Positions 23,539-46,970 of a stretch of DNA of 64,000 bases are shown piece by piece. The translations under genes and the position numbers were made by a program. The DNA comes from Candidatus Omnitrophota bacterium. GTDB lineage: Bacteria; Omnitrophota; Gorgyraeia; Tantalellales; Tantalellaceae. Each line of letters starts with the position of its first letter. Positions within the stretch are counted from its first letter, which is position 1. The notes under the pieces were generated by a model. That model did no database searches and was not told the DNA's origin. It saw only the letters and a list, made by a program, of their open reading frames with translations. Where the stretch lies: NCBI GenBank assembly GCA_015231405.1, contig JADGBR010000009.1:25423-89422 (forward strand), written 5' to 3'.

Positions 23539-23639
23539 ATGACACTTCCTTTTTATTACCTTTATTCATTAAATGTTTTAATAAGTTTTTAATTATTTTT
23601 AGCCTTAATTTTTCCTTATTATTGGAATTTATAAGGTCA

Positions 23640-23668: not shown

Positions 23669-23741
23669 AATAAATATTTCAACTTTTTTATTTTTTACTT
23701 CAACACGCCGATTATTAAAATACCTCAGTTCTTTTCTGAGT

Positions 23742-23769
23742 AGCGTCAAGAGACTAAGCCTGTCATTTT
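23742..23769. repeat. Left terminal inverted repeat (IR-L)
   Basis: gtcAAGAGACTAAGCCTGTCATTTTTCC. The core 25 nt are the perfect reverse complement of 25663-25687. Confidence 0.7.
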
Positions 23770-23845
23770 TCCCTGTGCTGCACGTCTGCACCGAGCGGGG
23801 TACGGACATCCTCTCCAAGCCTTCCCCCGGGAATTTCTTAACGCA

Positions 23846-24010
23846 TTTCACATGCCGTTTTTAGACCTTGCAAATTCACCCTCCTCCGTCTTCGGCTTCG
23901 GAGGGCGAGCTGCAAGCAAGGAGGTTGTCATAAAAACGGCATGCGAAATGCTAAAATTCCCGAAGGGGCCCCTTTGCTCTCCGAGGCTGTCCGCACCCCG
24001 TTTGATGCGT
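23846..24010. repeat. Nested-palindrome element, copy 1 (about 165 bp)
   Basis: A 13-bp perfect inner inverted repeat CATGCCGTTTTTA / TAAAAACGGCATG flanks a central hairpin CCCTCCGTCTTCGGCTTCGGAGGG, followed by TAAAATTCCCGAAGGGGCCCCTTTGC. The element is about 85% identical to the reverse complement of copy 2. Confidence 0.6.
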
Positions 24011-24065
24011 TTGAGAAGTTCGGTAAGGATCGCGTTAAGACCCTCTGGGATCCGCTATGTTCGTT

Positions 24066-25427: not shown

Positions 25428-25662
25428 AAAGTTTATTGACGATTTATGATATTGCGAGTTTTCATACTTGTTTTCGTGTGACGGGTAAGATTCGCGAGCG
25501 GACGGGGGCGGGCGAGCACTGCAGCAACTCGCCGCCGGAAGGATAACAATAATTTACACATCTCTGTGAATCAAACAACTGCAGTTTAAAAATAACAGGC
25601 GAATTGTGAAGCGCTCGAGAACGCATGCGGTCGATCGCGAATCTCGGTTGTCGGACGGTTAA

Positions 25663-25690
25663 GGAAAAATGACAGGCTTAGTCTCTTAGC
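25663..25690. repeat. Right terminal inverted repeat (IR-R)
   Basis: GGAAAAATGACAGGCTTAGTCTCTTagc. The core 25 nt are the perfect reverse complement of 23745-23769. Confidence 0.7.
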
Positions 25691-25835
25691 TAACGTCTGA
25701 AAATGTCTGAGGTGTTACTTATTCTTTGGATCTGTCTGCCAACTGTTGGTCGCGTGGCATGCTTAGGTATGCCATCGTAATATTACACGTACAAATATTT
25801 TGTAATAACTACTATAAGCGTGAGGTTACCGGGAT

Positions 25836-26060
25836 CGGACGGGGTGTGGACGCACTCTTCAAGCAAAGGGGCCCCTTAGGGAATTTTAGTCTTCCACATG
25901 CCGTTTTTATGACAACCACATTACTTGCGACTGAGCCCTCCGAAGCCGAAGGCGGAGGATGGGTGAATTCGCAAGGTCCAAAAACGGCATGTGGAAGGCG
26001 TTGTTAAATTCCCGTGGGGAATGCTTGAAGAGTGCGTCCGCACCCCGTCCGGCACCCCAT
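25836..26060. repeat. Nested-palindrome element, copy 2 (about 225 bp), inverted relative to copy 1 and carrying an extra outer stem
   Basis: The outer arms GACGGGGTGTGGACGCACTCTTCAAGC (25837-25863) and GCTTGAAGAGTGCGTCCGCACCCCGTCC (26023-26050) pair with 2 mismatches. The inner stem is CACATGCCGTTTTT / AAAAACGGCATGTGG and the core hairpin is CCCTCCGAAGCCGAAGGCGGAGG. Confidence 0.6.
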
Positions 26061-34697: not shown

Positions 34698-37600
34698 TTA
34701 CGCTGACCATAGAGCCTGACGTCGGCTCTCAAGTTCCGCCCGGGCGTCAACCGGCATAGCCGGCATGTTCATGAGCAGTCCCTTTATGAAATTGACCACG
34801 GCCTGTATCGACCGTTGGTCCGCGGGAAGAAGGTTGGTATCCTTGACCTCGTCGAAGCTCATCATAAAATATATATCGGACGGGGACACCCTTCTGCCGG
34901 TGAACTGCGTGAACAACACTTCCAATTGGTCCAGGTCTTTTTTATCCACTTGTTTATCGACAACCCGTACCGCCGAGAGGACCGATCCGGCGGCCAGCAT
35001 CTCAAGATTGTAATACATACCGTTATCCTTGAGGCCTGACACATCGGGCAATGCCGGGAGTTTGACGGCTTTTGAAAGGATCGCGCTTTCAACGCCGGTT
35101 TCGGTATCAGCGTTCTCATAATTTGCCACTGTTCCGAGTAAAACCTGGCGCGCGTCAGCCCTTAAAGAGCCGGCCCTGATCTCCGAGAAACCGACTTCCG
35201 AGTTGAACGTGATTATTCTGGCATCTATCCCAAGTTTCGTCCTGAGTACCTGCTCCAGCTCCCTTTTCTCATCGCCCGTGAAGGCTTCTTTGGGCATTAT
35301 ATAATCTATCTTTTCACCGTTGAGTTTAGCCGAGTAGGCCTTGGCTGTCTGGAACGCCTTAACTATGGTTTTTTCAGGACCCATAGGGATATGCCCGGTA
35401 TATACCCTGGTATCCTCGTCGGCTGACACGAGAGTATATTCCCCTAAACCCGCTGATACCATTTTTCTATCTCCGGATTTCAGGGTAATGATATTCCCAT
35501 CCCCGTCCCTGAGAAGTTTTCCCGTACGGTCCACTATTCTGATCGCTCCTTTCTCAACGGAAAGGATATGGTCAGAACGACTCGCCAACGCGTCAACTTT
35601 CACTGACCCGCCCATAGTCATTGTATACCCGGTCCTCATAAAATTGTCGCCGATCCCGATGATCTCGACCTTCGCGTCCCGCGCGTCAGAAGTGATAAGC
35701 GGCACCGGTGCCGCTTCAAGGGTTTCCACAGTGCGATCGCCCGCGGCGAGCTCACCGGAGGCGTCAATATCCAGAAGATACTTAGTTCCGTCGAGCGCCT
35801 CACCGCTATCGTCAGCCATGACCGCCTGGGGGAAAACCTCTCCCGGAGTTAATTCGCCCTCGCCGGGCATAGCCGCGTCATCGCCGAAGCGCGCCGCGTC
35901 CTGTACGGGAAGTCCGGCCAGGCGTGACCAGTTCTTAGCGACAATACCGCTAAGCCCTTTCGGGTCACCGACTTCAGGCCCTGGGTGGCTATCGCTAAAA
36001 ACGGAAATAGTCCCGTCGCTCATGATACCGAACCCTAATTCTTTGAACTGGTTAAGCTGCAAAAGCGCCCTTATGAGGGGAGGTGCCAGATATCTGCCCT
36101 TTGACGACATCTTCGGGTCCTCGACGTCGAGACCGACGGCTGAAACCCTGTCGCCCGTCCTCTCCCTGACACCTGCCCTGTCGGCCGGTATATAGTGCGA
36201 TTCATAAGCGGTGTAAAGAGAAGGCTCCCTTAAAAGCACGTACGTCATGTAATCCGCTACCATCTCCCAATCGGGTTCCGGTGATCCCTTCTCAGCCTGC
36301 AGATCCGCCCTGTGCTGCACCGACATGAACCTGTAAAGGTCTTCCATCATTGTCGCGGCGGTCGTTCCCGGAGGATCGTTCTCGAAAAGGGCGTTGTGGA
36401 TATAGATCATTAGAGCTACCTTATTATCCCTGATGGCGGCCCCTATCTCCGGTGTTATTATCGCCGAACCGATATTCGATACCAGCGTCGTTGGGAACAT
36501 AAGAAGAAGCCTGGAGTTCCTTATCGCCATTTCCGCGAGCGGATTAGAGGCTACTTTTTCGCTCGGCACAAGGACTTTTATCACTCCCTGGATGTCGCCT
36601 TCGTTTATTGCTTTTCTCAACGCCTCTTTTTGAGCCGCGTCAAGTACCGGGCGTTCCCTTATGACCGTCTTCTGGAACGGCCCCACCTTGGAGATCTCAT
36701 TGAAAGCGTCTTCGGATGGAAGGAACTGTATCCTTGTCGTGGGAACACCGTTTTCGTCTGTCTGGTAAGCCAGACCCGCGAGATGATATCTCCTTAACGT
36801 CACCGGATGTACCCGTCCCTGAACGTCAAGGAAAGTCTCCATTTCCCTTATGGTAAGATACCACGCGATATCGGCGCTGGTAGATCCCGCCTCGATCAGT
36901 ATCGATATTTCACCGTCTATCGCCGCCCTTTCCTCCGTCGAGAGAAAACCGTCCGGGTGGTCAGGAGCGGGTTTCGAAAGAGTAAGGAGCGCCGAACTTG
37001 GCACTGTCCCGCCAGGAAGCGCGTCTATCGCTTCATTGAAACATATCTGTGCGCCCACAAGGGTCATACTCCTCAAAGGCATGTCATATTTCGGGATCTC
37101 CACATTGGCGCAGAACTCCGCGTAAAGAAGGTCCCTAACTATCTGATCTTTCCCGTCCCTGATCAATTGATTGAGGACATGCTCGAGTTTTTCCTCAAGC
37201 GCGAGCACCCTCTCCTCGGGGTCGAGTTTAAGATCGCATAAAAGATGTCCCTGGTTTCGGGTAGGGTTCAGCATCTCCCAGAGCGTATTATCGGTAAGGC
37301 CGATTATGGCGCCCTCGGCGTCCCTCTTCGTCATTTCCGGGTGGGACTTCGCGAAATAAGCGAGTATATTTCCGACGAACGCCCCCCACACCTTTTCAGG
37401 TTCAGCCTTGGTCTTATCCTGTAATATACATTCCCTAAGTTCCGTAAGCGTATGTACCAATATCTCCTTGGCTTCGGCTACGGCCATACCGCCTCTCCTC
37501 ATATCATCCAGACGGCGATTGAACGCGGCTACATAGCCGTTAATAGCTTTAACCTTGGGAGCGTTCTTCGGCGAGACCTGCCCATACTGGGCCATGCGTA

Positions 37601-40600
37601 TCGCCGACGGCACCACCTCACCCTGGGCAGCTTGGCCCGCGAAAGTCTTATTGAAATTGGAGAGCGAAGCGATATTGCTGAACCTCGTGCCTCCGAGTAT
37701 AGCGGCCAATTCCCCGTCAAGAGCGCCGTCCATGAGACATTTACCTATGTCAGGCATGCCCGGAGAGTGGAACATAAGACTGGCCAGAAGCCAGCTCCTG
37801 CCGTCGTCCGTCGCTCCCGGGAACATGTTCATGGCAAGATCATGCCCCCCTATCCCCATAAGCCCCAGCTGTCGCCTGACTTCCTTCAGGAACCAGTTCG
37901 CGCCGCGGCCGCCTCTAAAACATCCCAGGTCAAAAGGCATCTGGTTGCGTAAAGTAACGCCTATGTACGATTCGGGTCCGAAAGCGGCAACGTACAGCGC
38001 CACTATCTCCTCGTCCGATAACCCCTCGCCTCTTTCCGGGGCGATTAGCGCGCCTAAAGCGGCTTTCTTATCGTCAAGATCTCCGCGTCCCAGGGCCGGG
38101 TTCTTGACATAATTCACATACTCGCCGTAAGCGCCCAATAGCGCGAGTATCTGGTCAGGCGCCTTTAACAGAGAATAACGCTGTATCGCCATACCCATCT
38201 CGAACCAATCTCCGTAATCCGAAAGAGCTACCATTTGCCTTGTGTAATTCTTACTTTTTCTGTCGTACGTACTTCCGTCGGTGTTATGCATCTCGACTAC
38301 CGGCCGCTTTACGACCATCAGTTGAGGTTTGATACCTTCGGCCGCGAGAGAAGCTACCTTGTTATAAAGCTCTCTATACCGGCTTTCCTGGCCGCGCACC
38401 GTAACTTTAAGCTGCGCGTAACTGGTCTGATTGGCGGTTGGAGGCCTCGCGCTTATACCCGACTTGACGAACCAATCCCTATACACGGTTTCCGGATCGA
38501 CCACCATGGATATAACTTCTGTCCTATTAATGAGCGCGGTATATAATTTAAGATCAGCTTCGGCATCTTTGGTCCTTTCTCCCACGGCGTCTTTTCTATC
38601 CGAATCGACCTTTAGCATGTCTATGAGAGTCTTGGCTCTTTCGGGCTGTCCATCCTGAACCAGGATACAAAGCGCCGTAGCTACGCTCGTGAACCTGCCG
38701 GCCATAGTAAGGCCCGCTTTTTCTACCGCTGCTTCATCTCCGGATAAAATACTCTTCATCTGCTTATAAGCATGCCCCTCACTATACATGATCAAAGACT
38801 CTGACAAAGTCTCCTCTTCATCCCTTATACCCTGGAAAGTCCCTTCCTTTATATCAGCCCCTTCAGGAATAATAGCCGCCTTTCCTTTTATTTTAACGTT
38901 CTTCAGTATCTTACCGCGTTCCGTGTGTTTCCCATCTTCCAGCCACTGCCCCGCACCGGCCCCGATATATGCTCTATCAGCCAATATCGTACAGTTCCTC
39001 ACCAAAGTCAGCGAATTGATCTGACCGTCCTGGGCCGGCTCATAACTCGTTACCCTACGGGCCATGACAAGTTTATGGTCGCCGAGGATCACCGCCGAAT
39101 CCTTTCTGGGCACAACCAACCCCTGCACACCCCAGCCGTTGCCGATATACAGGCGCCCTTCGGTATTTACCCCGTCGAGATATGTTCCGTTGCCGATCCT
39201 CGTGAATTTGTTCTTGATATCGATCTTACCGGCAAGCACTATCTGGTCTATTATGCGCAGTATCTGTTTCTTTTCCATGTCATACTGTTTCTTTCCGAAC
39301 ATGGAAAGAACATCCTGAACCGTACTTTCGGTAGCCTCTTTAAGGGTCCCGTCAGGGTTATAGCTCAATTTGATGTCTCCCGGCGCGAGCGGAAGAGTGA
39401 GCGGCTGACCGACTATCGCTGGATCCGCGTCAAGAAGGGTGATCAATAAACCCATATTCGCGACGAGCTGCCTTATGACATACTGCGGTTCTTTCGCCCT
39501 GGCGAGGTCTATCGTCTTATCCTCCTCACCGGTATCCTGCTCCCGAAGCTCTTTGAGGTCGCTTAATATCCTTTCCCCGTTCCTGACCTCCTGCAAAAGC
39601 ACTGATTCTATCTGCGATAACTCCTCTCCAAGCAGCACCTCTTTCATTTCCCCGTAAGAGCCGGCATTATCATAGCCTTCATCCTCGCCGGACTTACGAT
39701 AAACATACTCCATGACCTCTTTTCTTTTCTTACGGGCTTCTACGCTGCCCGCGTCCTTCGGCATCCTTTTTTCGGCGACGAATCTGGAATTATTCGAAAG
39801 AGGCAAATTATCCATGAGAAAACTGTCAAAGATCTCGGAATCCCGTCCTATGGTCCTAAGGGAGTTGTTCGCGCCTTTCACTCCCCGTATCGTGGAACCA
39901 TATACCTTACAGTTCCTTCCTACGTGACAGTATCCCAGTATGGCGCTGTTCTTTATTTCGGTAAATTTATTGTCGCTCCCGGAACGTATCTTTGACGTGA
40001 GATCAAGATGCACTTTACCCGAAAGTTTTATCCCGCGCGCCCTACCTTCCGCGGCGTCCTGGAAAACACCACCCGGACCGAATAAACTCTCTTTCACGGA
40101 GGCCAAAGTGAACACCTTCGCCTCAGGCCCGGGATTAAGAGAGATATAGTCCAACCCGCTTATATCCACCCCTCCTTCTTCAAGTATCTTTCTCAGCTCG
40201 AGCTGCCAGAACCTGTTGAACTCGTTCTGGCGCCATGTGTTCTTTATACCGTCCGGAGCGGCCGCGAAACGGGTATAGCCTACGGGTATACGAGCTCCCG
40301 GCTTATTAATGGCGTACCAGTCCCATAACGGGACTATCGGATCGGCCGGAGTACTTTCAAGTATCCCTTTCTTGCTGTCTACCTGTCCCTGCAGGTCCGG
40401 ATGATCATCCACCATCTCTATGAACGTCGACTCGGCCTGCGCTGTCCCGTTCGCCGCCTTTCTCCACGGATTGGAATGTTTTATTGTAGCCATGTCCCTG
40501 TGCATAACGACCACATTGGCGTTTATCGGCACGGTATGTCTCTGCCCGGCCGTAGTATCGGTATGTATGGTCTCGATGAGCGCGTCAACTTCCTCCTCAG

Positions 40601-43600
40601 CCAGATGTTCTATCTTGGAGACAAGGTCCCTCAACTCTTTATTTTCAGGAAGATCCCTGAGAAGCATTAAAAGCGCGCGTTTTTTTGCGTCGATGGGTTT
40701 ATTCCGCCAGTCCTGCAGATGCCTGACGCCACCTCCGAAAAGTGTAAGATCCGCCGGAACTCCCTTATCCGCGACGGCTATCTCATCCTTAAGACCTATC
40801 GTCATTAGATTGTTCTCAGCGACTGCCTCCATCCATGTGACAAGAACCACATCCGCTACCGACTGGTCCTGTATGCCGCAAGCCTCAACGTCGAACCTGA
40901 TATGGTAAGGCACATCGGGCATCTCGCCCGCTCTCTGCATCTCGATATTCTTTTCGACCTGACCGGTAAAACCGCCGCCATAGCCGTGCACGTTCTGGCC
41001 CTCGAGAACGGAATTGGGAGGAAGATTACGCTCCACCCTTCCTTCCGACAAATGTGCGGGGTCCAGAACTTTCGTTATGGGCGACTCTTTATCCGGAGGC
41101 CTTAAGTCCTGAAGGTCCCTGTCATATTTTACCGCCCCGGTCATCAGCCCGTATCTAACCTCATCCGAAAGGTTCTGAAAAACCGAAAAATCGCTTACGC
41201 TTATGCTTACAGGCGCGTCGGCAAGAGTTTCCGTAGCCCCCAGCAAAGTTGTAGCGGTGTTCGATATACCCGTACCCATAGGGCTGACATGCCCTTTGTG
41301 GTTAAGCCCCATCGGGGAATAACGCGCCCCGAACCCGCCGCCAAGGCTGACTATGATGAAACCGAAATGTTTATTGAACACACTGTAAAAACCTCTCTCG
41401 TCATATTCAGATAACGGTTTCTTATCTTCTCTGGCCAGCTTATTCGCCACGGCCCTGAGAAATCTCAAAGAGAGTTCTTCGGCTCTGTCCGAGTCGGTCC
41501 TCTGCCCAGCGATGATATCTTTCTTGATCACTTTCTCTGTCTCTGAACGAAGCGACGGTCTCCCGTTAACGGTTTTGGCTAAAAGCAGGTTCTTAATGGC
41601 CATTTCCTCGGCTTGGCCTTTATCCGCTATCGAGTCTGACACTCTCTGGACCTCGGCGCTGACGACATCCGCGCCGTAAAGAATGTTCAGGCTTTTCAGC
41701 GTCCACGCCCTGTCGGTCGCCGCTTTTCTCGGAGCGAGATAATTCCTCGCCTCGTTGTATTCCCTGTCAAGAAGCCCCTTGGCTTTCTTAAGGTCCCTGT
41801 GTGATTTCCAGTCTATATCCACAACGGGAGGCCTCTGCATGAAAGCTATGTGCTGATTGACGAGCGACGAGAAATACCCGAACATAATATCGTCTTTCGT
41901 CATCTGAGCGGGATTCGTGTCAGGGTGCGACAATGCCTGCCTTACCGCGTCCATGCGGATGGCCACAAGGAGCGGGTCTACAATGGCGTCTTTATCAAGC
42001 CTTTGGAGATCTTTTTCGGTTCCCGCCATAGGCCTGAATATCTTGGATATTATCCTGTCAAGGCTGTCCTGTTTAGCCTGGATCAGCTCATCCGCTATCT
42101 CAAGCCCCTGCTTAAAGGCAACAAGCGGCCTGGGGTCGATCCGGTCCTGGTGAGGTATCACAAAATCCCAGGCAGCTTTCGCGCAGTCGAGACATTCTTT
42201 GAGGTCGCGGCCTTCCACCATGCTTATCATCTGCGGATCGGTAAGAGAAGCCCTGAAAAGCACCCAGGCTCTGTCGGCGCCATGCGAGGGTTCGGTAAAC
42301 CCAAGCCTTACCCCGGACCTCTCATCGAGCCCGCCGTTCGCATTATCCTCCGCCATGAAGATATCGCAGGTGCCTTCGCCGAACCCGGACTCTTTTCTTT
42401 CTGCTTTTCCGAGCGCGCTGTCCCGCATGACTTTTGGGATAACGGCTTTATCTCCGTCGACGAGGTCCATATCAGCCCTATCGACCGGTTTTTTACCTAT
42501 TTCTCCCGGGAGGCCCATCTCGTTACGCACCTCAGAGCATATCGTACGCCGGTATAAACCGACTATCTCGTCAAGCGTCTTGCCGCTGGCCGCCACGGCT
42601 TTTAAGACCTGGCTGGCCGTATACATGCCGTCATCTATGAAAGCATTGTCCCTGAACATGATATGCCCGGATTCTTCTCCGGCTATGATCACGTTCTCGC
42701 CTCTTCCAACCCGTTTTAAGGCCTCGTTGCGGACATAGACGTATCCGGTATTAGCCATGGCGAATTTCGCCCCTTTGGAAACTATACCTTCGCGGACTAT
42801 CATAGAGCTCTTGTTGTTACCTATTATAGTGACGTTCGCCAGATCCGCCGCGTTGGCGCCATCTGTGATCATCTGATCCAGAGCCGCCTCACCCAGAAGC
42901 CTGAGTAAGGCCTGCCCGTTAAGCCTGTTGCCGAACTTGTCAATGAACGCCACCCTGTCCCCGTCTGAATCGAAAGCTATTCCAAGATCGGCTCCTGTCT
43001 GGCGGACCCTGGAGACAAGATCGTTTACAGCTTCTTCCTTGTTAGGGTCCGCGATATGGTTCGGGAAACGCCCGTCTGGATCGCAATAAAGGCGGTCCAC
43101 CGTCACTCCAAGGGCTTCAAGCACATCCGCGTAAAATCCGGCGGTACCGTTACCCGGGTCCACCACGACCTTTTTGCCCCTTAGCGATCCGGCCAGGGGC
43201 TGGAGATCATCTAACAGGAATTGTTTGTAATCTGTAAGACATTTCTTCTCGATGACGCGTTCACCGGCGGGAAGAGGTTCGGCTTTTGTTATGTCGCCGT
43301 CATAAAATTCCCTTTTATTGGCTCTTCTCAGAACCGTCAATAGTTCGCCGCGGGTTATGTCCTCACCCTTGATCGTGAATTTTAGCCCGTTGAACTGCGA
43401 TGCGAGATGACTGGCCGTTATCATGATGGTCGCGTGGATAGGCATCTCCTCTGTCGCGTAATTGTGGTATGCCCATGAAACCATCGGCGTAGTATTGTAT
43501 TTAACGCCCAGGTTCTCCTCTCCTATATATACGACCTTCGCGCCGTTGTCCGTAAGCGCTTTCTCGACCGTCGCCCTTATACGGGGGGAAGTAAGCCTTA

Positions 43601-46600
43601 TATCGTTACCAAGGACTATTGTCGGGTTCGGTACATCAGTGCCGGTAGAGGCCTTCAGCTTTTCCCTTATCACCCTGAGGAACGCCAGAGACATATCGTA
43701 CACGACATCATAGGGAAGCTCCGTCGCGACTTCACCTCTCAGATCCTGCCCGGCGAATATCATCGACCCTTTCCCTTGCGACTCGTCACCGAAGGCCCTG
43801 ACCCTCGCCTTTTTCACTCTCCCTTCCGCTTTTTTAGCGGCGTCCTGGATAACAGCGTTGGGATGAAGTTTTAACTCGCCTAACTCTGCCAGAGATCTGG
43901 TCGAATAAAAGAGTTCCTGCAAAGAGTCTATCTGCTGTTCCGGAGTTCCCTGGAGGATAGCGTTCTCCTCAGGCGTAAGCTCCAAAGTCGACGCGGCCAG
44001 GGTTTGACGCCCGGATTGCCCGTATATGCTCTTACCTTTATACACCGGGGTCGGAGCATCCGGCACGTTCCGGTCAAGGAAGAACTTCCTGTTAATATTA
44101 AGCGCTAGCCCTACTATAAGCGCCCTCATCCTCGGGTCTGTCGTCACAAGGCGCGGGAACTCATACCCGGCGACTTCGCTGTCCAGGACCGTTTCAAGAT
44201 ATCTCGCTAAACGGAGCTGATCCATCCTGATAGATCTGTCCGGGTACGCGTACGACGCCTTGTACCACAACATGACAACATCATCGATGAACCTCGCCGC
44301 CTCGCTCTTGCCAGTTTCCGTCGAGTCTAAAATGAGGCTTCCCTTCTCTGGGGCATAGGCGTGCCCCGGGCTCCTTCCGGCCCAGTGCATCTCGTGAAGG
44401 GCCAGTTTGAAAGCGAGCGAATCCGCCAGATTAACGGTCCGCGTTCGTGGTTCGCCCCTGTCATTCGTATAACTCAGGTCAAAAACCACATTATTTTCCG
44501 ATATATGATCGAAATCACGGTCAAAAGATCCGTTGAACTCGACTACAAGCTGTCCGGGATTATCCTCGTCTCTTCCGGGAAATATCTGGCAGGTCGGAAC
44601 GGTATTAGGTTTGTGCTCATAATCGACATTGTGCCTGATATTAAGATTCGGACGTCCCCCTTCGTCAGCTATGCCGGCTTTTATGGCTACAAAAGCGAAA
44701 ACGTCGTCTATCGACGTCATCCCGCCTGAAAGCCCCACTTGCGCGGAAGGAGATCCCAACCTTATACTGCCAGGAGCTATGCCTGAGGCGACGGTCCGTT
44801 CGAGCGTTTCTGCACCGGCGGCGTCTATCATGCTCCTTTTGGGGACCTGTCCCGCTTCCGGCATCGCTGCCTCAGCCCCAAAACTGGCTACTTCGGCTGA
44901 TCGCCTGATGGCTAGAGCGGCCGCGGCCGAGATCGCATCAAAACCAGCCGGGTCCGACAACTGTGCGACTATAAAATCAGCGCCTTCCCGAGTCCTGGGG
45001 TCACGGCTATTCGCCCTGAACCTGTCAAGAACCGCTTTCTGTAAACGCGCGCGTCCTTCCGCGGTGTCGAGATCATATTGTCCCTCAGAGGCGAAAGCCG
45101 TCACTAAAGCCACCGCCAACTCCTGTAGGAACGTTAAACCCGATGCTCTTATTTCAACATTCCGTATCTGCGGGTCCAGGCACATACCGCTTATCATGTT
45201 GGCCACCTGCAGCGAAGCCGTCTCTACAATAGGAATGAACGGCTGATAAGGCGTCTTTATGCCTGTCAATACCGACATGTACCTGTCATCGCCTTCGATC
45301 GCCATGGATGGAACGATAACGGCATATGAGATATCCCTTTCCTTAAGATATTTCGTCATACCGCCCGTGTGAAAACCCCCGGTGATCAAAACTCCGGTCC
45401 TGGTCTTTTTCCCGGCCATGCCTTTGAAAGTGTTCTCAAGGAGTATCTTGTCGCGTTTCACGGCGATCGAGTAAAAATCGAGCAGTTTACCGAACGCGCG
45501 CCCAAGCTCGGCACCCGGCAGGTCTGCCGTCAACGCCAGGCCGTACTTTTCGCTCTGGGCGTTTATGAACCCCGTGTAAACCTCCGCGGAGAATTCAGCC
45601 TTGTTGTCGTTATAGTATTCGTATTCCCGGTTCGTTATCCTGAGGGCCATGAAATCCAGTGTTATACCTGAATTTTTCCATAGTCTGTCGAGCCGCCTCT
45701 GGTCATCCCCGGCGAACATCCTCGCCTTTATCTCCGATATGAGAGAATCTATTTCCGTAAAAAGACGTTCGTTATCGACCCCGGAATAAGTTGTCAAATA
45801 GGCCATATACCTGAAAAGGTCAGGATAAGAACGCTCGAGGGATATACCGCTTTTTTTCGCCAATTCCGAAAGAAAAACATAGAAGCTGTAATTGGATATC
45901 CTGCCGTTCTTGAAATCCGAGCTTTTGGCGACTAGCGACGCCAGTAATTTCTGGTCTACCTTCCCGCTCAGCTCCTCGATAATAGCCGATCTCTCCTTGT
46001 TCACCGTTTCGAAATTGATCCCCTTTTCAAGGGCCAGCGTCGACAAAAGGAGTGAATAGCTGGGATATTTATCCAGAGATATCCCTTTCGCCCAAGCGAG
46101 TCCATTAAGGTAGGACGCATGGTCCTCCAGCTTTATCTTATTGTCCCCGTAATTCGATATGTGTTCGTCAAGGTCCCTGAGTTCCTGGCTGTAAATAACC
46201 GATTTTAATCTGCCGAGCGACTGTCGGATATTAGCGTAATATTCACCGAACTGACCTCTGTACGCGTATCCCTCAAGAAAAGCGTTAAGGTTCTCTATAT
46301 ACTCCTTCCTGTTCTCCGCTCCATAGAGGGTAAAAGGCTCGCTACCGGTAATTGATAAATACTCGGGTCCCGTTAAATTCCCTTTTCTTAGAAAATGGTC
46401 GGCAGCCTGTTCTCTGAGGCTGTCGTTGGGGAAGGCATTGAACCACGTCGTCTCTATGGTCGAATCCGCTCCCTCGACCGCCACGAAATTGACGTCATAT
46501 TTTTTTATGAGCTCATCGATTATCCGGGCTATATTCATCTCGGCGCTGTAATTACAATGCGCGTCCTGAATATGAATGATAGAAATATCCCCTTTGCCGG

Positions 46601-46808
46601 AAAACTTTTCTTTGATAGTTCCGCAGTTAAGCGGTATATCGAGTTTGTCTATGGAGACCTTTCGAGACACAGGCTCGAATGTCTGTTGAAAACTCCTGCC
46701 TATATCGGCATTCGCGAAACTTATGTTAGATATTAAAAAGATCTGGGCAATTGATAGACTAACTATTCGATGGAAAAATTTCCATTCTCTTATCAACTTA
46801 ATACTCAT
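34698..46808 (-). CDS. Giant multidomain membrane protein (gene B), 4036 aa. Domains are the N-terminal conserved domain, an alpha-D-phosphohexomutase (PGM/PMM), a sugar-nucleotide pyrophosphorylase-like region, left-handed beta-helix repeats and the shared C-terminal domain
   Basis: Complete ORF from the track. ATG at 46806-46808 with an AGGAG Shine-Dalgarno 6 nt upstream, TAA at 34698-34700. Signal-anchor at residues 13-32. Confidence 0.9.
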   Translation of the reverse strand: MSIKLIREWKFFHRIVSLSIAQIFLISNISFANADIGRSFQQTFEPVSRKVSIDKLDIPLNCGTIKEKFSGKGDISIIHIQDAHCNYSAEMNIARIIDELIKKYDVNFVAVEGADSTIETTWFNAFPNDSLREQAADHFLRKGNLTGPEYLSITGSEPFTLYGAENRKEYIENLNAFLEGYAYRGQFGEYYANIRQSLGRLKSVIYSQELRDLDEHISNYGDNKIKLEDHASYLNGLAWAKGISLDKYPSYSLLLSTLALEKGINFETVNKERSAIIEELSGKVDQKLLASLVAKSSDFKNGRISNYSFYVFLSELAKKSGISLERSYPDLFRYMAYLTTYSGVDNERLFTEIDSLISEIKARMFAGDDQRRLDRLWKNSGITLDFMALRITNREYEYYNDNKAEFSAEVYTGFINAQSEKYGLALTADLPGAELGRAFGKLLDFYSIAVKRDKILLENTFKGMAGKKTRTGVLITGGFHTGGMTKYLKERDISYAVIVPSMAIEGDDRYMSVLTGIKTPYQPFIPIVETASLQVANMISGMCLDPQIRNVEIRASGLTFLQELAVALVTAFASEGQYDLDTAEGRARLQKAVLDRFRANSRDPRTREGADFIVAQLSDPAGFDAISAAAALAIRRSAEVASFGAEAAMPEAGQVPKRSMIDAAGAETLERTVASGIAPGSIRLGSPSAQVGLSGGMTSIDDVFAFVAIKAGIADEGGRPNLNIRHNVDYEHKPNTVPTCQIFPGRDEDNPGQLVVEFNGSFDRDFDHISENNVVFDLSYTNDRGEPRTRTVNLADSLAFKLALHEMHWAGRSPGHAYAPEKGSLILDSTETGKSEAARFIDDVVMLWYKASYAYPDRSIRMDQLRLARYLETVLDSEVAGYEFPRLVTTDPRMRALIVGLALNINRKFFLDRNVPDAPTPVYKGKSIYGQSGRQTLAASTLELTPEENAILQGTPEQQIDSLQELFYSTRSLAELGELKLHPNAVIQDAAKKAEGRVKKARVRAFGDESQGKGSMIFAGQDLRGEVATELPYDVVYDMSLAFLRVIREKLKASTGTDVPNPTIVLGNDIRLTSPRIRATVEKALTDNGAKVVYIGEENLGVKYNTTPMVSWAYHNYATEEMPIHATIMITASHLASQFNGLKFTIKGEDITRGELLTVLRRANKREFYDGDITKAEPLPAGERVIEKKCLTDYKQFLLDDLQPLAGSLRGKKVVVDPGNGTAGFYADVLEALGVTVDRLYCDPDGRFPNHIADPNKEEAVNDLVSRVRQTGADLGIAFDSDGDRVAFIDKFGNRLNGQALLRLLGEAALDQMITDGANAADLANVTIIGNNKSSMIVREGIVSKGAKFAMANTGYVYVRNEALKRVGRGENVIIAGEESGHIMFRDNAFIDDGMYTASQVLKAVAASGKTLDEIVGLYRRTICSEVRNEMGLPGEIGKKPVDRADMDLVDGDKAVIPKVMRDSALGKAERKESGFGEGTCDIFMAEDNANGGLDERSGVRLGFTEPSHGADRAWVLFRASLTDPQMISMVEGRDLKECLDCAKAAWDFVIPHQDRIDPRPLVAFKQGLEIADELIQAKQDSLDRIISKIFRPMAGTEKDLQRLDKDAIVDPLLVAIRMDAVRQALSHPDTNPAQMTKDDIMFGYFSSLVNQHIAFMQRPPVVDIDWKSHRDLKKAKGLLDREYNEARNYLAPRKAATDRAWTLKSLNILYGADVVSAEVQRVSDSIADKGQAEEMAIKNLLLAKTVNGRPSLRSETEKVIKKDIIAGQRTDSDRAEELSLRFLRAVANKLAREDKKPLSEYDERGFYSVFNKHFGFIIVSLGGGFGARYSPMGLNHKGHVSPMGTGISNTATTLLGATETLADAPVSISVSDFSVFQNLSDEVRYGLMTGAVKYDRDLQDLRPPDKESPITKVLDPAHLSEGRVERNLPPNSVLEGQNVHGYGGGFTGQVEKNIEMQRAGEMPDVPYHIRFDVEACGIQDQSVADVVLVTWMEAVAENNLMTIGLKDEIAVADKGVPADLTLFGGGVRHLQDWRNKPIDAKKRALLMLLRDLPENKELRDLVSKIEHLAEEEVDALIETIHTDTTAGQRHTVPINANVVVMHRDMATIKHSNPWRKAANGTAQAESTFIEMVDDHPDLQGQVDSKKGILESTPADPIVPLWDWYAINKPGARIPVGYTRFAAAPDGIKNTWRQNEFNRFWQLELRKILEEGGVDISGLDYISLNPGPEAKVFTLASVKESLFGPGGVFQDAAEGRARGIKLSGKVHLDLTSKIRSGSDNKFTEIKNSAILGYCHVGRNCKVYGSTIRGVKGANNSLRTIGRDSEIFDSFLMDNLPLSNNSRFVAEKRMPKDAGSVEARKKRKEVMEYVYRKSGEDEGYDNAGSYGEMKEVLLGEELSQIESVLLQEVRNGERILSDLKELREQDTGEEDKTIDLARAKEPQYVIRQLVANMGLLITLLDADPAIVGQPLTLPLAPGDIKLSYNPDGTLKEATESTVQDVLSMFGKKQYDMEKKQILRIIDQIVLAGKIDIKNKFTRIGNGTYLDGVNTEGRLYIGNGWGVQGLVVPRKDSAVILGDHKLVMARRVTSYEPAQDGQINSLTLVRNCTILADRAYIGAGAGQWLEDGKHTERGKILKNVKIKGKAAIIPEGADIKEGTFQGIRDEEETLSESLIMYSEGHAYKQMKSILSGDEAAVEKAGLTMAGRFTSVATALCILVQDGQPERAKTLIDMLKVDSDRKDAVGERTKDAEADLKLYTALINRTEVISMVVDPETVYRDWFVKSGISARPPTANQTSYAQLKVTVRGQESRYRELYNKVASLAAEGIKPQLMVVKRPVVEMHNTDGSTYDRKSKNYTRQMVALSDYGDWFEMGMAIQRYSLLKAPDQILALLGAYGEYVNYVKNPALGRGDLDDKKAALGALIAPERGEGLSDEEIVALYVAAFGPESYIGVTLRNQMPFDLGCFRGGRGANWFLKEVRRQLGLMGIGGHDLAMNMFPGATDDGRSWLLASLMFHSPGMPDIGKCLMDGALDGELAAILGGTRFSNIASLSNFNKTFAGQAAQGEVVPSAIRMAQYGQVSPKNAPKVKAINGYVAAFNRRLDDMRRGGMAVAEAKEILVHTLTELRECILQDKTKAEPEKVWGAFVGNILAYFAKSHPEMTKRDAEGAIIGLTDNTLWEMLNPTRNQGHLLCDLKLDPEERVLALEEKLEHVLNQLIRDGKDQIVRDLLYAEFCANVEIPKYDMPLRSMTLVGAQICFNEAIDALPGGTVPSSALLTLSKPAPDHPDGFLSTEERAAIDGEISILIEAGSTSADIAWYLTIREMETFLDVQGRVHPVTLRRYHLAGLAYQTDENGVPTTRIQFLPSEDAFNEISKVGPFQKTVIRERPVLDAAQKEALRKAINEGDIQGVIKVLVPSEKVASNPLAEMAIRNSRLLLMFPTTLVSNIGSAIITPEIGAAIRDNKVALMIYIHNALFENDPPGTTAATMMEDLYRFMSVQHRADLQAEKGSPEPDWEMVADYMTYVLLREPSLYTAYESHYIPADRAGVRERTGDRVSAVGLDVEDPKMSSKGRYLAPPLIRALLQLNQFKELGFGIMSDGTISVFSDSHPGPEVGDPKGLSGIVAKNWSRLAGLPVQDAARFGDDAAMPGEGELTPGEVFPQAVMADDSGEALDGTKYLLDIDASGELAAGDRTVETLEAAPVPLITSDARDAKVEIIGIGDNFMRTGYTMTMGGSVKVDALASRSDHILSVEKGAIRIVDRTGKLLRDGDGNIITLKSGDRKMVSAGLGEYTLVSADEDTRVYTGHIPMGPEKTIVKAFQTAKAYSAKLNGEKIDYIMPKEAFTGDEKRELEQVLRTKLGIDARIITFNSEVGFSEIRAGSLRADARQVLLGTVANYENADTETGVESAILSKAVKLPALPDVSGLKDNGMYYNLEMLAAGSVLSAVRVVDKQVDKKDLDQLEVLFTQFTGRRVSPSDIYFMMSFDEVKDTNLLPADQRSIQAVVNFIKGLLMNMPAMPVDARAELESRRQALWSA
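34701..35321 (-). other. Domain in B: shared C-terminal domain (short variant)
   Basis: AVKLPALPDVSGLKDNGMYYNLEMLAAG ... GLLMNMPAMPVDARAELESRRQALWSA. Confidence 0.5.
38829..39971 (-). other. Region in B: hexapeptide-repeat (left-handed beta-helix) segments
   Basis: LGYCHVGRNCKVYGSTIRGVKGAN (2292-2315) and IGNGTYLDGVNTEGRLYIGNGWGVQGLVV ... VRNCTILADRAYIGAGAGQ ... LKNVKIKGKAAIIPEGADIKEG (2538-2656) show the [LIV]-G-x-x-x-x periodicity typical of GlmU or acyltransferase left-handed beta-helix domains. Confidence 0.4.
40704..41360 (-). other. Region in B: putative sugar-1-phosphate nucleotidylyltransferase-like (UDP-sugar pyrophosphorylase-type) fold
   Basis: FIIVSLGGGFGARYSPMG (1817-1834) resembles the L(N/A)GG(L/Q)GT(R/S)(L/M)G loop of UGPase, UAP and GlmU-type enzymes. 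FGGGVRHLQD lies at 2024-2033. Weak evidence; a profile search is needed. Confidence 0.3.
42549..43631 (-). other. Domain in B: alpha-D-phosphohexomutase (phosphoglucomutase/phosphomannomutase) domain
   Basis: MIFAGQDLRGEV is GTDGIRG-like. The active-site Ser loop is TIMITASHLASQFNGLK (TASHNP-type, Ser 1133). The metal-binding loop is GIAFDSDGDRVAFID (1276-1290). The sugar-binding loop is IIAGEESGHIMF (1374-1385). Confidence 0.7.
45294..46586 (-). other. Domain in B: conserved N-terminal domain (a more divergent copy)
   Basis: ISIIHIQDAHCNYSAEMNIARIIDELIKKYDVNFVAVEGADSTIET (residues 75-120) and VLITGGFHTGGMTKYLKERDISYAVIVPS (residues 473-501). Confidence 0.4.
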
Positions 46809-46893
46809 GTCATTCTCCTGTTTTTAAATAGATGTAGTGATTTATTCACCTATCAGGAACATATTGCCTTTTTAAAACTTTACATTAGTCTCT

Positions 46894-46921
46894 ATTATAT
46901 CACAATTGCTAAAAAAAACAA
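46894..46921 (-). promoter_or_regulatory. Candidate promoter for gene B, TTGTTT-16 bp-TGaTATAAT (extended -10)
   Basis: In the 162-bp AT-rich C-B intergenic region the -10 TATAAT is the reverse complement of 46894-46899, with TGA immediately upstream (reverse complement of 46900-46902). The -35 TTGTTT is the reverse complement of 46916-46921. The 5' UTR would be about 75 nt. Confidence 0.4.
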
Positions 46922-46970
46922 CAGTTACATGTTAAAATTTAAACACCTAACATTCATCCTATATGTTATT

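What the first reader, a model, noticed from the sequence alone, without database searches (positions are those of the whole stretch)
38829..43631. Sugar-nucleotide assembly line in giant protein B: phosphohexomutase, pyrophosphorylase-like region and left-handed beta-helix repeats
A PGM/PMM domain with all three catalytic loops (TASHxx Ser loop, DSDGDR metal loop, GEESGH sugar loop) lies at 42549-43631. About 400 aa downstream is a GGGxGxR nucleotidyltransferase-like loop, at 40704-41360. Further downstream are hexapeptide beta-helix repeats, at 38829-39971. This is the domain logic of hexose-1-phosphate to NDP-sugar pathways (GlmM plus GlmU-like) collapsed into one polypeptide.
Basis: partly seen in the sequence, partly recalled or inferred. 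Interest (0 to 1): 0.65.

Follow-up and report, generated by a model that had tools for sequence, protein, structure and literature searches.

The report
Hidden sugar-nucleotide cassette in giant protein

Summary
The finding lies in one 4036-aa ORF (34698-46808, minus strand), the second of four tandem giant ORFs.

**Mutase: confirmed.** The PGM/PMM domain (aa 1017-1545) matches Pfam domains I-III at E 1e-17 to 1e-20 and P. aeruginosa PMM/PGM at E 4e-35. All four catalytic loops are intact.

**Pyrophosphorylase-like region: real, but only at fold level.**
- No Pfam nucleotidyltransferase model is matched.
- An AlphaFold model built from nine homologous giant proteins (pLDDT 70-90 here) hits UDP-sugar pyrophosphorylases (UAP1/AGX1, USP, UGP; Foldseek E 7e-7).
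- Seven UAP1 motifs recur in order, and the Arg/Lys/Lys phosphate triad is invariant.

**Beta-helix: partly confirmed.**
- A short left-handed beta-helix follows at 39789-40037 (hhalign against GlmU, P 1e-6).

**Context.**
- A CofD/YvcK-type domain lies downstream.
- Mutase, pyrophosphorylase module and CofD co-occur in shuffled order in other giant proteins, which argues for a functional cassette.
- An N-terminal signal/anchor suggests a location outside the cytoplasm, which is awkward for NTP-dependent chemistry.

Verdict: partly supported; a new variant of a known kind; moderate interest.

The parts
34698..46808 (-). Giant ORF B, 4036 aa. Contains every feature listed below.
   Evidence: Full-length homologues P0001-P0003 share 37-42% identity over more than 3300 aa.
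46707..46769 (-). N-terminal signal peptide or signal anchor (aa 14-34): positively charged n-region, hydrophobic core, ANA|D site.
   Evidence: Read directly from the sequence. The hydropathy scan finds no real internal TM helix in B: its single borderline peak, at aa 2448 (score 1.61), is an acidic stretch of the linker. Location is an inference; no signal-peptide predictor was available.
42174..43760 (-). alpha-D-phosphohexomutase (PGM/PMM/GlmM-type) domain, aa 1017-1545, all four subdomains. There is an insert of about 40 aa before the domain IV core.
   Evidence: Pfam domains I/II/III at E 8e-17, 7e-20 and 5e-17. NCBIfam Arch_GlmM 203 bits, below the equivalog cutoff. PDB 1k35/2fkf E 1.5e-36.
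43401..43418 (-). Phosphoserine loop TASHLA (Ser1133).
   Evidence: Aligned to TGSHNP of P. aeruginosa PMM/PGM. Conserved in homologues.
42954..42971 (-). Metal-binding loop DSDGDR (D1280, D1282, D1284, R1285).
   Evidence: Aligned to DGDGDR of PMM/PGM. DxDxDR is invariant in 4 of 4 sequences.
42663..42680 (-). Sugar-binding loop GEESGH (E1378, S1380, H1382).
   Evidence: Aligned to GEMSGH of PMM/PGM. Conserved in B, P0002 and P0003; degenerate in P0001.
42234..42254 (-). Domain IV phosphate-binding loop RASLTDP (R1519, S1521, T1523).
   Evidence: Aligned to RASNTTP of PMM/PGM. This local alignment is not significant on its own (domain 2). Conserved in homologues.
40038..41552 (-). Cryptic NDP-sugar pyrophosphorylase-like domain with a UDPGP-type fold (aa 1753-2257): N-terminal helices, a Rossmann-like core and a long helix.
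   Evidence: AF2 with the 10-sequence alignment gives pLDDT about 70-90 over these residues. The top 43 Foldseek PDB hits are all UAP1/AGX1, USP or UGP, E 7e-7 to 5e-5, with GlmU and ADP-glucose PPase first appearing at ranks 44-50. hhalign against E. coli GlmU: Prob 91%, P 1e-6 over the last part of the NT domain, the helical arm and the LbH. No Pfam hit.
41295..41342 (-). Gly-rich phosphate loop GGGFGARYSPMGLNHK (R1829, K1838).
   Evidence: G1825, R1829 and K1838 are invariant in 10 of 10 sequences. The loop aligns to the GGxGTR loop of GlgC (P 0.014), GlmU (P 0.043) and AGX1 (P 0.039); none of these is significant alone.
40233..40256 (-). PDGIKNTW motif with invariant K2189, the proposed counterpart of the catalytic Lys of UAP1 (AGX1 PNGIKMEKF; AfUAP1 K437).
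   Evidence: K2189 is invariant in 10 of 10 sequences. The AGX1 sequence was verified against 1jv1. The role of K437 is taken from PMC8386105. The correspondence was made by eye and is an inference.
39789..40037 (-). Short left-handed beta-helix (LbH1, aa 2258-2340), the C-terminal tail of the pyrophosphorylase-like domain.
   Evidence: hhalign against GlmU LbH P 1.1e-6, LpxD 8e-4, DapD 3e-3. Pfam LbH_EIF2B in 8 of 10 members and Hexapep in 4 of 10. The PDB profile search hits only the LbH tails of eIF2B gamma/epsilon, AGPase, GlmU and UGPase. Lag-6 autocorrelation is 0.35.
39252..39788 (-). Predicted helical linker (aa 2341-2519) with low model confidence.
   Evidence: AF2 secondary structure and pLDDT below 50. 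Conserved only among the closest homologues.
38814..39251 (-). Beta-rich 'domain X' (aa 2520-2665) with the motifs IGNGTY, GNGWG, IGAGAG and IIPEG. Possibly a second, diverged beta-helix; fold not established.
   Evidence: This is the most conserved part of the module across all 10 proteins. Only sub-threshold hits were found: Pfam Hexapep in 4 of 10 members and LbH_EIF2B in 2 more. hhalign P 0.016-0.12. Lag-6 autocorrelation 0.21. AF2 pLDDT 30-40.
36294..37946 (-). CofD/YvcK (UPF0052)-like domain with large inserts (aa ~2955-3505). Motifs FRGGRGA, PGATDDGRSW and MFPTTLVSN.
   Evidence: Pfam CofD scores 26-30 bits in B (gathering threshold 30) but 43-71 bits in P0001, P0002, P0004, P0007 and P0008. 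The profile hits YvcK-family structures 2o2z, 2hzb and 2ppv at E 2e-4.

Best explanation
Protein B is a member of a family of giant, N-terminally anchored or exported multi-enzyme proteins. Homologues are annotated as Candidatus Omnitrophota and Candidatus Desantisbacteria. B carries a conserved sugar-nucleotide cassette, which I propose works in three steps.

1. A catalytically intact alpha-D-phosphohexomutase domain interconverts hexose-6-phosphate and hexose-1-phosphate. It uses phospho-Ser1133, Mg2+ held by D1280/D1282/D1284, and a hexose-1,6-bisphosphate intermediate.
2. About 200 aa downstream, a highly diverged UDPGP-fold pyrophosphorylase condenses hexose-1-phosphate with an NTP to give NDP-hexose and PPi. 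Its proposed catalytic elements are the Gly-rich loop with R1829 and K1838, a D/E-aromatic sugar-phosphate motif, and K2189. A short non-catalytic left-handed beta-helix tail follows.
3. The product is presented to a downstream CofD/YvcK-type domain, a family that binds nucleotide-activated substrates.

What is shown: the domain identities, intact mutase motifs, the fold assignment, invariance of the putative catalytic residues, and co-occurrence of the domains. What is inferred: catalysis by the pyrophosphorylase-like domain, the direction of flux, the identity of sugar and nucleotide, any channelling, and the role of domain X and the CofD-like domain.
For: **Mutase.**
- Pfam domains I-III match at E 1e-17 to 1e-20.
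- P. aeruginosa PMM/PGM matches at E 1.5e-36 with the catalytic loops aligned.
- The loops are conserved in homologues that are only about 40% identical.

**Pyrophosphorylase-like domain.**
- The module aa 1753-2720 is collinear in nine other giant proteins.
- The AF2 model has pLDDT 70-90 over aa 1753-2250.
- The top 43 Foldseek PDB hits are all UDPGP-family enzymes, E 7e-7 to 5e-5; GlmU and ADP-glucose PPase first appear at ranks 44-50.
- The profile against E. coli GlmU gives Prob 91%, P 1e-6.
- The few invariant columns include R1829, K1838 and K2189. By eye these match the phosphate-binding R141/K148/K437 of AfUAP1.
- Seven AGX1 motifs recur in the same order with similar spacing (AGX1 sequence verified; B positions).

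**Beta-helix tail:**

**Functional linkage, from domain order in other proteins.**
- PGM, module, CofD in B and P0001-P0002.
- CofD, module, PGM in P0007 and P0008.
- Module then CofD in P0004.
- Module, NUDIX, NAGPA phosphodiester glycosidase in P0005.
- Module ... NUDIX ... PMI type I, PGM in P0006.
Against: - B matches no nucleotidyltransferase or UDPGP Pfam/NCBIfam model. phmmer against 1.84 billion representatives found only giant-protein relatives and no stand-alone enzyme.
- Profile comparisons with AGX1, GlgC and GlmU align the Gly-rich loop only at P 0.01-0.04. The fold assignment therefore rests on one AF2 model from a 10-sequence alignment.
- The canonical Thr of GxGTR is Ala in B and varies in the family.
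- The N-terminal signal/anchor, together with the absence of other TM helices, predicts that the enzyme domains lie outside the cytoplasm, where NTPs and sugar phosphates are not expected.
- NCBIfam equivalog cutoffs are not reached, so substrate specificity is unknown.
Confidence: 0.55

Rival explanations
1. Pseudoenzyme or scaffold. The pyrophosphorylase-like domain, and possibly the whole cassette, has lost catalysis. It would serve as a ligand-binding or structural module of a surface-exposed giant protein, much as eIF2B gamma/epsilon keep the NT+LbH fold without making sugar nucleotides.
For: - The best Pfam and PDB sequence matches of the beta-helix tail are to eIF2B epsilon/gamma.
- No NT Pfam model is matched.
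- The Thr of the GxGTR loop is not conserved.
- The predicted extracytoplasmic location lacks NTPs.
- P0001 has a degenerate mutase sugar loop, GARTGN.
Against: - R1829, K1838, K2189, E1975 and K2015-G2016 are invariant across proteins only 21-43% identical. This is what purifying selection on an active site would give.
- All four catalytic loops of the mutase are intact in B.
- The module repeatedly co-occurs with other sugar-phosphate and NDP-sugar enzymes.
Confidence: 0.22
2. Salvage direction. The same reversible enzymes run catabolically on NDP-sugars or phosphodiester-linked sugars taken from a host or prey cell. The route would be NDP-hexose + PPi to NTP + hexose-1-P, then hexose-6-P, feeding an energy-poor episymbiont.
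For: - Both reactions are reversible; pyrophosphorolysis by UAP1 is described in PMC8386105.
- The module is fused to NUDIX and to a NAGPA-type phosphodiester glycosidase in P0005, and to NUDIX in P0006. These are degradative activities on nucleotide-sugars and sugar-phosphodiesters.
- The protein has an export signal.
- The literature on Omnitrophota giant proteins proposes extracellular processing of sugars (10.1101/2023.11.21.568195).
Against: - There is no direct evidence on direction.
- PPi and a route for importing phosphorylated products would be needed outside the cell.
- PMI followed by PGM in P0006 fits a biosynthetic GDP-mannose-type route just as well.
Confidence: 0.15
3. Only the mutase is real. 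The downstream Gly-rich loop and 'hexapeptide' stretches would be chance motifs in an otherwise unrelated region.
For: - B fails the Pfam thresholds for NTP_transferase, UDPGP and Hexapep.
- Single-sequence AF2 gave no fold.
- Domain X shows only sub-threshold hexapeptide signal.
Against: - The motifs are conserved in 10 proteins.
- The alignment-based model hits 40+ UDPGP structures with probability 1.00.
- hhalign against GlmU gives P 1e-6.
Confidence: 0.04

Closest known systems
UDPGP family (Pfam PF01704): UDP-GlcNAc pyrophosphorylase UAP1/AGX1, UDP-glucose pyrophosphorylase UGP, UDP-sugar pyrophosphorylase USP
   Same: - Predicted fold: N-terminal helices, a Rossmann-like core and a C-terminal domain reached through a long helix.
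- A Gly-rich loop with Arg and Lys.
- G-[HYN]-G-G, acidic-aromatic, N-x-N and G-I-K motifs in the same order and with similar spacing as in AGX1.
- UGP and USP also end in a beta-helix.
   Different: - About 10% identity. Undetectable by HMMER, and by hhalign beyond the Gly-rich loop.
- Thr of GxGTR is replaced, and the Arg-to-Lys spacing is 9 rather than 7.
- There is an insertion of about 40 aa, predicted to be helical, before the N-x-N motif.
- The domain is embedded in a 4036-aa protein with an export signal. Activity is untested.
GlmU (bacterial bifunctional GlcNAc-1-P uridylyltransferase / GlcN-1-P acetyltransferase)
   Same: The arrangement NT domain, helical arm, left-handed beta-helix. 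hhalign gives Prob 91% over GlmU residues 159-322, with B N2095 aligned to GlmU N169.
   Different: - The confirmed beta-helix is only about 80 aa.
- No acetyltransferase signature could be shown.
- The N-terminal half of the NT domain does not align significantly.
- Foldseek ranks GlmU below the UDPGP family.
PMM/PGM (AlgC, P. aeruginosa) and archaeal or bacterial GlmM: the alpha-D-phosphohexomutase superfamily
   Same: Four-domain architecture with all four catalytic loops: T-A-S-H, DxDxDR, GEESGH and RxSxT.
   Different: - An internal domain of a giant protein.
- H-L-A in place of H-N-P after the serine.
- An insert of about 40 aa before domain IV.
- Scores are far below every NCBIfam equivalog cutoff, so specificity is open.
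Multi-enzyme giant proteins of Omnitrophota ('Archaeovorins' of West-Roberts et al. 2023; the 'multi-enzyme metabolic cluster' class of Nielsen & Lui 2026)
   Same: - Tandem giant ORFs with an N-terminal signal or TM segment.
- PGM/PMM, PEP-utilising, kinase and methyltransferase domains embedded in long Pfam-dark sequence.
- The homologues found here are annotated Omnitrophota or Desantisbacteria.
   Different: - B (4 kAA) is below the 10-kAA cut used in those catalogues and has no dockerin.
- Neither paper mentions a pyrophosphorylase or a CofD domain (and section 8 of the 2023 preprint).
- The conserved mutase, pyrophosphorylase and CofD cassette is not described there.
CofD / YvcK (GlmR, UPF0052) family
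   Same: The downstream domain matches Pfam CofD and the YvcK-family structures. Members of this family bind nucleotide-activated ligands (LPPG; UDP-sugars).
   Different: Large insertions, a borderline score in B itself, and no evidence on ligand or activity.

Membership tests
alpha-D-phosphohexomutase superfamily (PGM/PMM/GlmM) | Pfam domains I, II and III above gathering thresholds | tested here: met
   61.6, 71.9 and 62.4 bits against cutoffs of 22.5, 29.3 and 20.7.
alpha-D-phosphohexomutase superfamily (PGM/PMM/GlmM) | Catalytic phosphoserine loop, DxDxDR metal loop and GE(x)SGH sugar loop | tested here: met
   TASH (S1133), DSDGDR (1280-1285) and GEESGH (1377-1382) align to the corresponding loops of 1k35/2fkf. 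Conserved in P0002 and P0003.
alpha-D-phosphohexomutase superfamily (PGM/PMM/GlmM) | Domain IV with the phosphate-binding loop R-x-S-x-T | tested here: inconclusive
   RASLTDP (1519-1525) aligns to RASNTTP of PMM/PGM, but that local alignment scores -3.3 bits. PF00408 is not hit.
GlmM / PMM equivalogs (NCBIfam) | Score above the curated equivalog cutoff | tested here: not met
   Arch_GlmM 203 bits against 439; PRK09542 162 against 618; glmM 124 against 448.
NDP-sugar pyrophosphorylase: UDPGP (PF01704) or NTP_transferase (PF00483) | Profile-HMM match above threshold | tested here: not met
   No hit at E up to 5 in B, nor in any of the 10 module sequences at E up to 1. The PDB profile search gave no NT-domain hit at E up to 10.
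NDP-sugar pyrophosphorylase: UDPGP (PF01704) or NTP_transferase (PF00483) | Pyrophosphorylase fold | tested here: met
   The AF2 model (pLDDT 70-90 over aa 1753-2250) gives Foldseek matches to 40+ UAP1, USP and UGP structures, E 7e-7 to 1e-4, prob 1.00, and then to GlmU and AGPase. This rests on a predicted, not a solved, structure.
NDP-sugar pyrophosphorylase: UDPGP (PF01704) or NTP_transferase (PF00483) | Gly-rich loop G-x-G-T-R followed by Lys | tested here: inconclusive
   GGGFGAR...K is present, with G, R and K invariant, but Thr is Ala. Alignments to GlgC, GlmU and AGX1 fall on this loop at only P 0.014-0.043.
NDP-sugar pyrophosphorylase: UDPGP (PF01704) or NTP_transferase (PF00483) | Second catalytic Lys (AfUAP1 K437 / AGX1 GIK motif) | tested here: inconclusive
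   K2189 in PDGIK is invariant in 10 of 10 sequences and resembles PNGIK of AGX1. The correspondence was made by eye, not by a significant alignment.
NDP-sugar pyrophosphorylase: UDPGP (PF01704) or NTP_transferase (PF00483) | Enzymatic formation of NDP-sugar and PPi | not testable with these tools
   Requires biochemistry.
Left-handed beta-helix / hexapeptide-repeat proteins | Hexapeptide profile match, for LbH1 (aa 2258-2340) | tested here: met
   hhalign against GlmU LbH P 1.1e-6, LpxD 8e-4, DapD 3e-3. LbH_EIF2B is hit in 8 of 10 members (best E 3e-5) and Hexapep in 4 of 10. B alone is below Pfam gathering thresholds (16 bits against 54).
Left-handed beta-helix / hexapeptide-repeat proteins | Hexapeptide profile match, for domain X (aa 2520-2665) | tested here: inconclusive
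   Sub-threshold hits in 6 of 10 members: Pfam Hexapep at E 0.03-0.3 in 4 and LbH_EIF2B at E about 0.1 in 2. hhalign P 0.016-0.12. Lag-6 periodicity 0.21. AF2 pLDDT 30-40.
GlmU-type bifunctional enzyme | Catalytic acetyltransferase beta-helix domain | tested here: inconclusive
   LbH1 aligns only to the first turns of the GlmU LbH (residues 267-322). Domain X against the GlmU acetyltransferase region gives P 0.016. No active-site residues could be mapped.
CofD / YvcK (UPF0052) | Pfam PF01933 above its gathering threshold | tested here: met
   B scores 26.4-30.1 bits against a threshold of 30, which is borderline. Orthologous domains score 46, 47, 71, 45 and 43 bits. The profile hits 2o2z, 2hzb and 2ppv at E 2e-4.
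'Archaeovorin' (dockerin-type Omnitrophota giant proteins) | Dockerin / TSP3 repeats | tested here: not met
   No dockerin (PF00404) or TSP3 hit in B or in the neighbouring giant ORFs.

The most novel reading that the evidence does not exclude
Mutase, cryptic UDPGP-type pyrophosphorylase and CofD/YvcK-like domain form a portable three-enzyme cassette that has been shuffled among exported giant proteins of Omnitrophota and Desantisbacteria. The cassette would operate outside the producer's cytoplasm, at the contact with a host or prey cell or inside it. There it would make NDP-hexose, or pyrophosphorolyse it, and transfer hexose-1-phosphate onto an acceptor. The CofD-like domain would act as a phosphoglycosyl transferase by analogy with the phospholactyl transfer from LPPG carried out by CofD.
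Probability: 0.12. Interest if true: 0.75.

Novelty: new variant of a known kind. Interest (0 to 1): 0.45.

Why it matters
Most of the sequence of Omnitrophota-type giant proteins is invisible to Pfam, and their function is an open question. This case shows that part of that dark sequence is a recognisable enzyme fold, a UDP-sugar pyrophosphorylase. It also shows that this fold travels together with a phosphohexomutase and a CofD/YvcK domain through several domain orders.

That gives a concrete hypothesis that can be tested biochemically: sugar-nucleotide synthesis or salvage by an exported giant protein. It also provides a ready family profile (alignment A1) for annotating more of these proteins.

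If the domains are active outside the cytoplasm, that would bear on how these episymbionts exploit their hosts. If they are inactive, it would be an example of enzyme folds reused as scaffolds.

Tried and rejected
- **The search for homologous proteins** with B aa 1780-2700 and with alignment A1 gave no hits, although the relatives are in the collection. The word-index search appears not to reach these giant proteins.
**Metagenome contigs** gave one locus, L001 on Ga0265297_10004014, with no taxonomic information.
- **The look-up of encoding contigs** for B: not on record.
- **Single-sequence AlphaFold** of aa 1780-2367 gave pLDDT 33 and was useless.
- **hhalign of the NT profile** against human AGX1 (sequence verified), GlgC and GlmU aligned only the Gly-rich loop, at P 0.014-0.043. 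Sequence-profile evidence for UDPGP membership is therefore lacking.
- **Domain X** against GlmU, LpxA, LpxD, DapD and GlgC was not significant.
- **A suspected PMI motif** (LSLQIHxFPE) in the C-terminal inserts of P0002 and P0003 was not confirmed by Pfam (protein 1). A genuine PMI type I domain was found only in P0006.
- **The shared N-terminal ~530-aa domain** profile against the PDB gave no significant hit.
- **Direct taxonomic placement** of the window was not possible. The Omnitrophota assignment rests on the annotations of homologues and on resemblance to published giant-gene loci.

Full report
**Setting.** The window holds four consecutive giant reading frames, all on the minus strand:

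| ORF | Coordinates | Length |
|---|---|---|
| A | 46971 to beyond 63998 | more than 5675 aa |
| B | 34698-46808 | 4036 aa |
| C | 26151-34625 | 2824 aa |
| D | before 1 to 23565 | more than 7855 aa |

The finding lies entirely in B. B, C and D share an N-terminal domain of about 530 aa that follows a hydrophobic N-terminal segment. A, C and D share a C-terminal domain. The neighbours also carry embedded enzyme domains:
- C has a PEP-utilising PEP-binding domain plus an HPr-like piece.
- A has two guanylate kinase domains and a SAM methyltransferase.

Proteins of this kind are described for Omnitrophota. West-Roberts et al. 2023 (bioRxiv 10.1101/2023.11.21.568195) list PGM/PMM and pyruvate-phosphate dikinase domains in such proteins. 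Nielsen & Lui 2026 (bioRxiv 10.64898/2026.06.07.730766) define a 'multi-enzyme metabolic cluster' class in which PGM/PMM is frequent. I could not place the window taxonomically by direct means. However, the only relatives of the region of interest include proteins annotated Candidatus Omnitrophota (RKY30123.1) and Candidatus Desantisbacteria (MEK9150035.1).

**The mutase.** This part of the finding is confirmed.
- Pfam PGM_PMM_I, II and III match aa 1017-1419 at E 8e-17, 7e-20 and 5e-17.
- The best solved relative is P. aeruginosa PMM/PGM at E 1.5e-36.
- In that alignment TASH (Ser1133) falls on TGSH, DSDGDR (1280-1285) on DGDGDR, and GEESGH (1377-1382) on GEMSGH.
- RASLTDP (1519-1525) falls on the domain-IV phosphate loop RASNTTP. 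PF00408 itself is not hit, and an insert of about 40 aa precedes the domain IV core.
- The loops are conserved in homologues that are about 40% identical. One homologue, P0001, has a degenerate sugar loop.
- NCBIfam equivalog cutoffs are far from reached (Arch_GlmM 203 bits against 439). 'GlmM' is therefore not established, only membership of the superfamily.

**The pyrophosphorylase-like region.**
- No NTP_transferase, UDPGP or Hexapep model reaches threshold in B, even when B is scanned in 500-aa pieces at E up to 5.
- phmmer of aa 1780-2700 against 1.84 billion representative proteins found nine relatives, all giant proteins of 1418-6199 aa, and no stand-alone enzyme.
- Three of the nine (P0001-P0003) are full-length homologues of B. 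In all nine the module aa 1753-2720 is collinear.

The 10-sequence alignment A1 has few invariant columns in the N-terminal 500 residues. They include G1825, R1829, K1838, G1944, Y1968, E1975, K2015-G2016 and K2189.

With A1 as input, AlphaFold2 gave pLDDT of about 70-90 for aa 1753-2250. Foldseek against the PDB returned UDP-GlcNAc pyrophosphorylases (UAP1/AGX1), UDP-sugar pyrophosphorylase and UDP-glucose pyrophosphorylase as the top 43 hits (E 7e-7 to 5e-5, probability 1.00). GlmU and ADP-glucose pyrophosphorylase first appear at ranks 44-50.

Independently of the model, a profile-sequence comparison of A1 with E. coli GlmU gave probability 91% and P 1e-6 over GlmU residues 159-322. That stretch is the last part of the uridylyltransferase domain, the helical arm and the first turns of the beta-helix.

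I verified the human AGX1 sequence against 1jv1 and compared motifs by eye:

| B motif | B positions | AGX1 motif |
|---|---|---|
| GGGFGAR..K | 1823-1838 | GGQGTR..K |
| HGYGGGF | 1941-1947 | DGNGGLY |
| FDVE | 1972-1975 | CVDN |
| DKGV | 2014-2017 | EPVGV |
| LQDW | 2031-2034 | VVEY |
| PINAN | 2094-2098 | FNAGN |
| PDGIK | 2185-2189 | PNGIK |

- The order is the same and the spacing is similar, apart from one insertion of about 40 aa.
- The residues that AfUAP1 uses to hold the phosphates (R141, K148 and the catalytic K437; PMC8386105) would correspond to the invariant R1829, K1838 and K2189.
- This mapping is an inference. hhalign of the family profile against AGX1, GlgC and GlmU places only the Gly-rich loop correctly, at P 0.014-0.043.

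**The beta-helix.** A genuine left-handed beta-helix follows the long helix, at aa 2258-2340 (39789-40037).
- hhalign gives P 1.1e-6 against GlmU, 8e-4 against LpxD and 3e-3 against DapD.
- Pfam LbH_EIF2B is hit in 8 of 10 family members (best E 3e-5) and Hexapep in 4 of 10.
- A PDB profile search hits, weakly but almost exclusively, the beta-helix tails of eIF2B gamma/epsilon, ADP-glucose pyrophosphorylase, GlmU and a UGPase.
- It is short, about 80 aa, like the non-catalytic tails of those enzymes.

- A low-confidence helical linker, aa 2341-2519.
- A beta-rich, strongly conserved 'domain X', aa 2520-2665, with the motifs IGNGTY, GNGWG, IGAGAG and IIPEG.

In domain X every hexapeptide test is sub-threshold, and the aliphatic lag-6 autocorrelation is 0.21 against 0.35 in the true helix and about 0 in the NT core. 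A second beta-helix is plausible but not shown. Nothing supports a GlmU-type acetyltransferase.

**Context that bears on function.** Downstream, at aa ~2955-3505, lies a CofD/YvcK (UPF0052)-like domain. It is borderline in B (26-30 bits, gathering threshold 30) but clear in homologues at 43-71 bits. Its profile hits YvcK-family structures at E 2e-4.

Across the ten proteins the module keeps company with sugar-phosphate and nucleotide-sugar domains in different orders:

| Proteins | Domain order |
|---|---|
| B, P0001, P0002 | PGM, module, CofD |
| P0007, P0008 | CofD, module, PGM |
| P0004 | module, CofD |
| P0005 | module, NUDIX, NAGPA phosphodiester glycosidase |
| P0006 | module ... NUDIX ... 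PMI type I, PGM |

Co-occurrence that survives shuffling argues that these domains work on a common class of substrates.

**Mechanism proposed.**
1. Hexose-6-P is converted to hexose-1-P at the mutase. The motifs are shown; activity is inferred.
2. Hexose-1-P and NTP give NDP-hexose and PPi at the UDPGP-like domain. The fold and the conserved basic residues are shown; activity, sugar and nucleotide are inferred.
3. The CofD/YvcK-like domain binds or uses the activated sugar. This step is speculative.

**The main difficulty.** B begins with a typical signal or anchor sequence (MSIKLIREWKFFHR, then a hydrophobic core, then ANA|D). It has no real internal TM helix: the single borderline hydropathy peak, at aa 2448, is an acidic stretch of the linker. 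The enzymes are therefore predicted to sit outside the cytoplasm, where NTPs are not expected. West-Roberts et al. noted the same puzzle for glycolytic domains in these proteins. This keeps two rivals alive: non-catalytic use of the folds, and a salvage direction acting on host-derived nucleotide sugars. The fusions to NUDIX and NAGPA fit the second.

**Verdict.**
- The mutase is real and intact. A pyrophosphorylase fold is present but recognisable only through a family alignment and a predicted structure.
- That fold is nearer to UDPGP enzymes than to GlmU. Only a short beta-helix is demonstrable.
- Multi-enzyme giant proteins with PGM/PMM are already described. What is new is the cryptic pyrophosphorylase module and its conserved association with the mutase and a CofD/YvcK domain.
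- I rate it a new variant of a known kind, of moderate interest.

Noticed in passing
window 634-8295 and 56175-63977 (minus strand): A stretch of about 2600 aa of giant ORF A (aa 2-2602 of the part seen) is 65% identical to aa 5091-7644 of giant ORF D. This is a 7.7-kb segmental duplication between two genes about 50 kb apart. Both copies are rich in predicted TM helices.
   Followed up: partly
window 45189-46706 (B), 32709-34574 (C), 21562-23394 (D): B, C and D, and also P0001-P0003, share an N-terminal domain of about 530 aa that follows the signal/anchor. Identity is 27-40%, with invariant motifs IQDAH, VAVEG and TGG(F/Y)H. It has no Pfam hit and no significant PDB profile hit. It may define this giant-protein family.
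   Followed up: partly
window 24066-25427 (minus strand), between ORFs C and D: Two overlapping ORF fragments (24066-24662 and 24610-25095) match the two halves of the IS66-family DDE transposase (Pfam E 8e-17 and 3e-11). This is a frameshifted, probably dead insertion sequence in the low-GC gap between giant genes. A third adjacent ORF (25098-25427) has a CxxC motif but no Pfam hit.
   Followed up: yes
window 28206-29903 (ORF C, aa ~1575-2140): ORF C carries a PEP-utilising enzyme PEP-binding domain (E 5e-31). A weak mobile-domain hit and a weak HPr-like hit flank it. Together these look like an Enzyme I/PPDK-like phosphotransfer unit inside a 2824-aa protein.
   Followed up: no
window 55764-56168, 54648-55052 and 52815-53192 (ORF A): ORF A contains two guanylate kinase domains (E 1.5e-20 and 6e-32) and a class I SAM methyltransferase domain (E 9e-15), lying among many predicted TM helices.
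   Followed up: no
homologue P0005 (1661 aa, Logan assembly) and P0006 (MEK9150035.1): In other giant proteins the same pyrophosphorylase-like module is fused to different partners. P0005 adds NUDIX and a NAGPA-type phosphodiester glycosidase. P0006 adds NUDIX, a GT9 glycosyltransferase and a PMI type I domain directly followed by PGM/PMM. These fusions hint at mannose or phosphodiester-sugar chemistry.
   Followed up: partly
window 22001-26000 and 46001-48000: GC content drops to about 0.45, against about 0.52 elsewhere, at the 5' ends of giant genes D and B and in the adjoining intergenic regions.
   Followed up: no
window ~63620-63705 (ORF A, aa 92-121 of the part seen): A short collagen-like G-x-y run (GAQGAKGESGQAGQMGPEGE) gives a weak Pfam Collagen hit at E 0.004, below threshold.
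   Followed up: no
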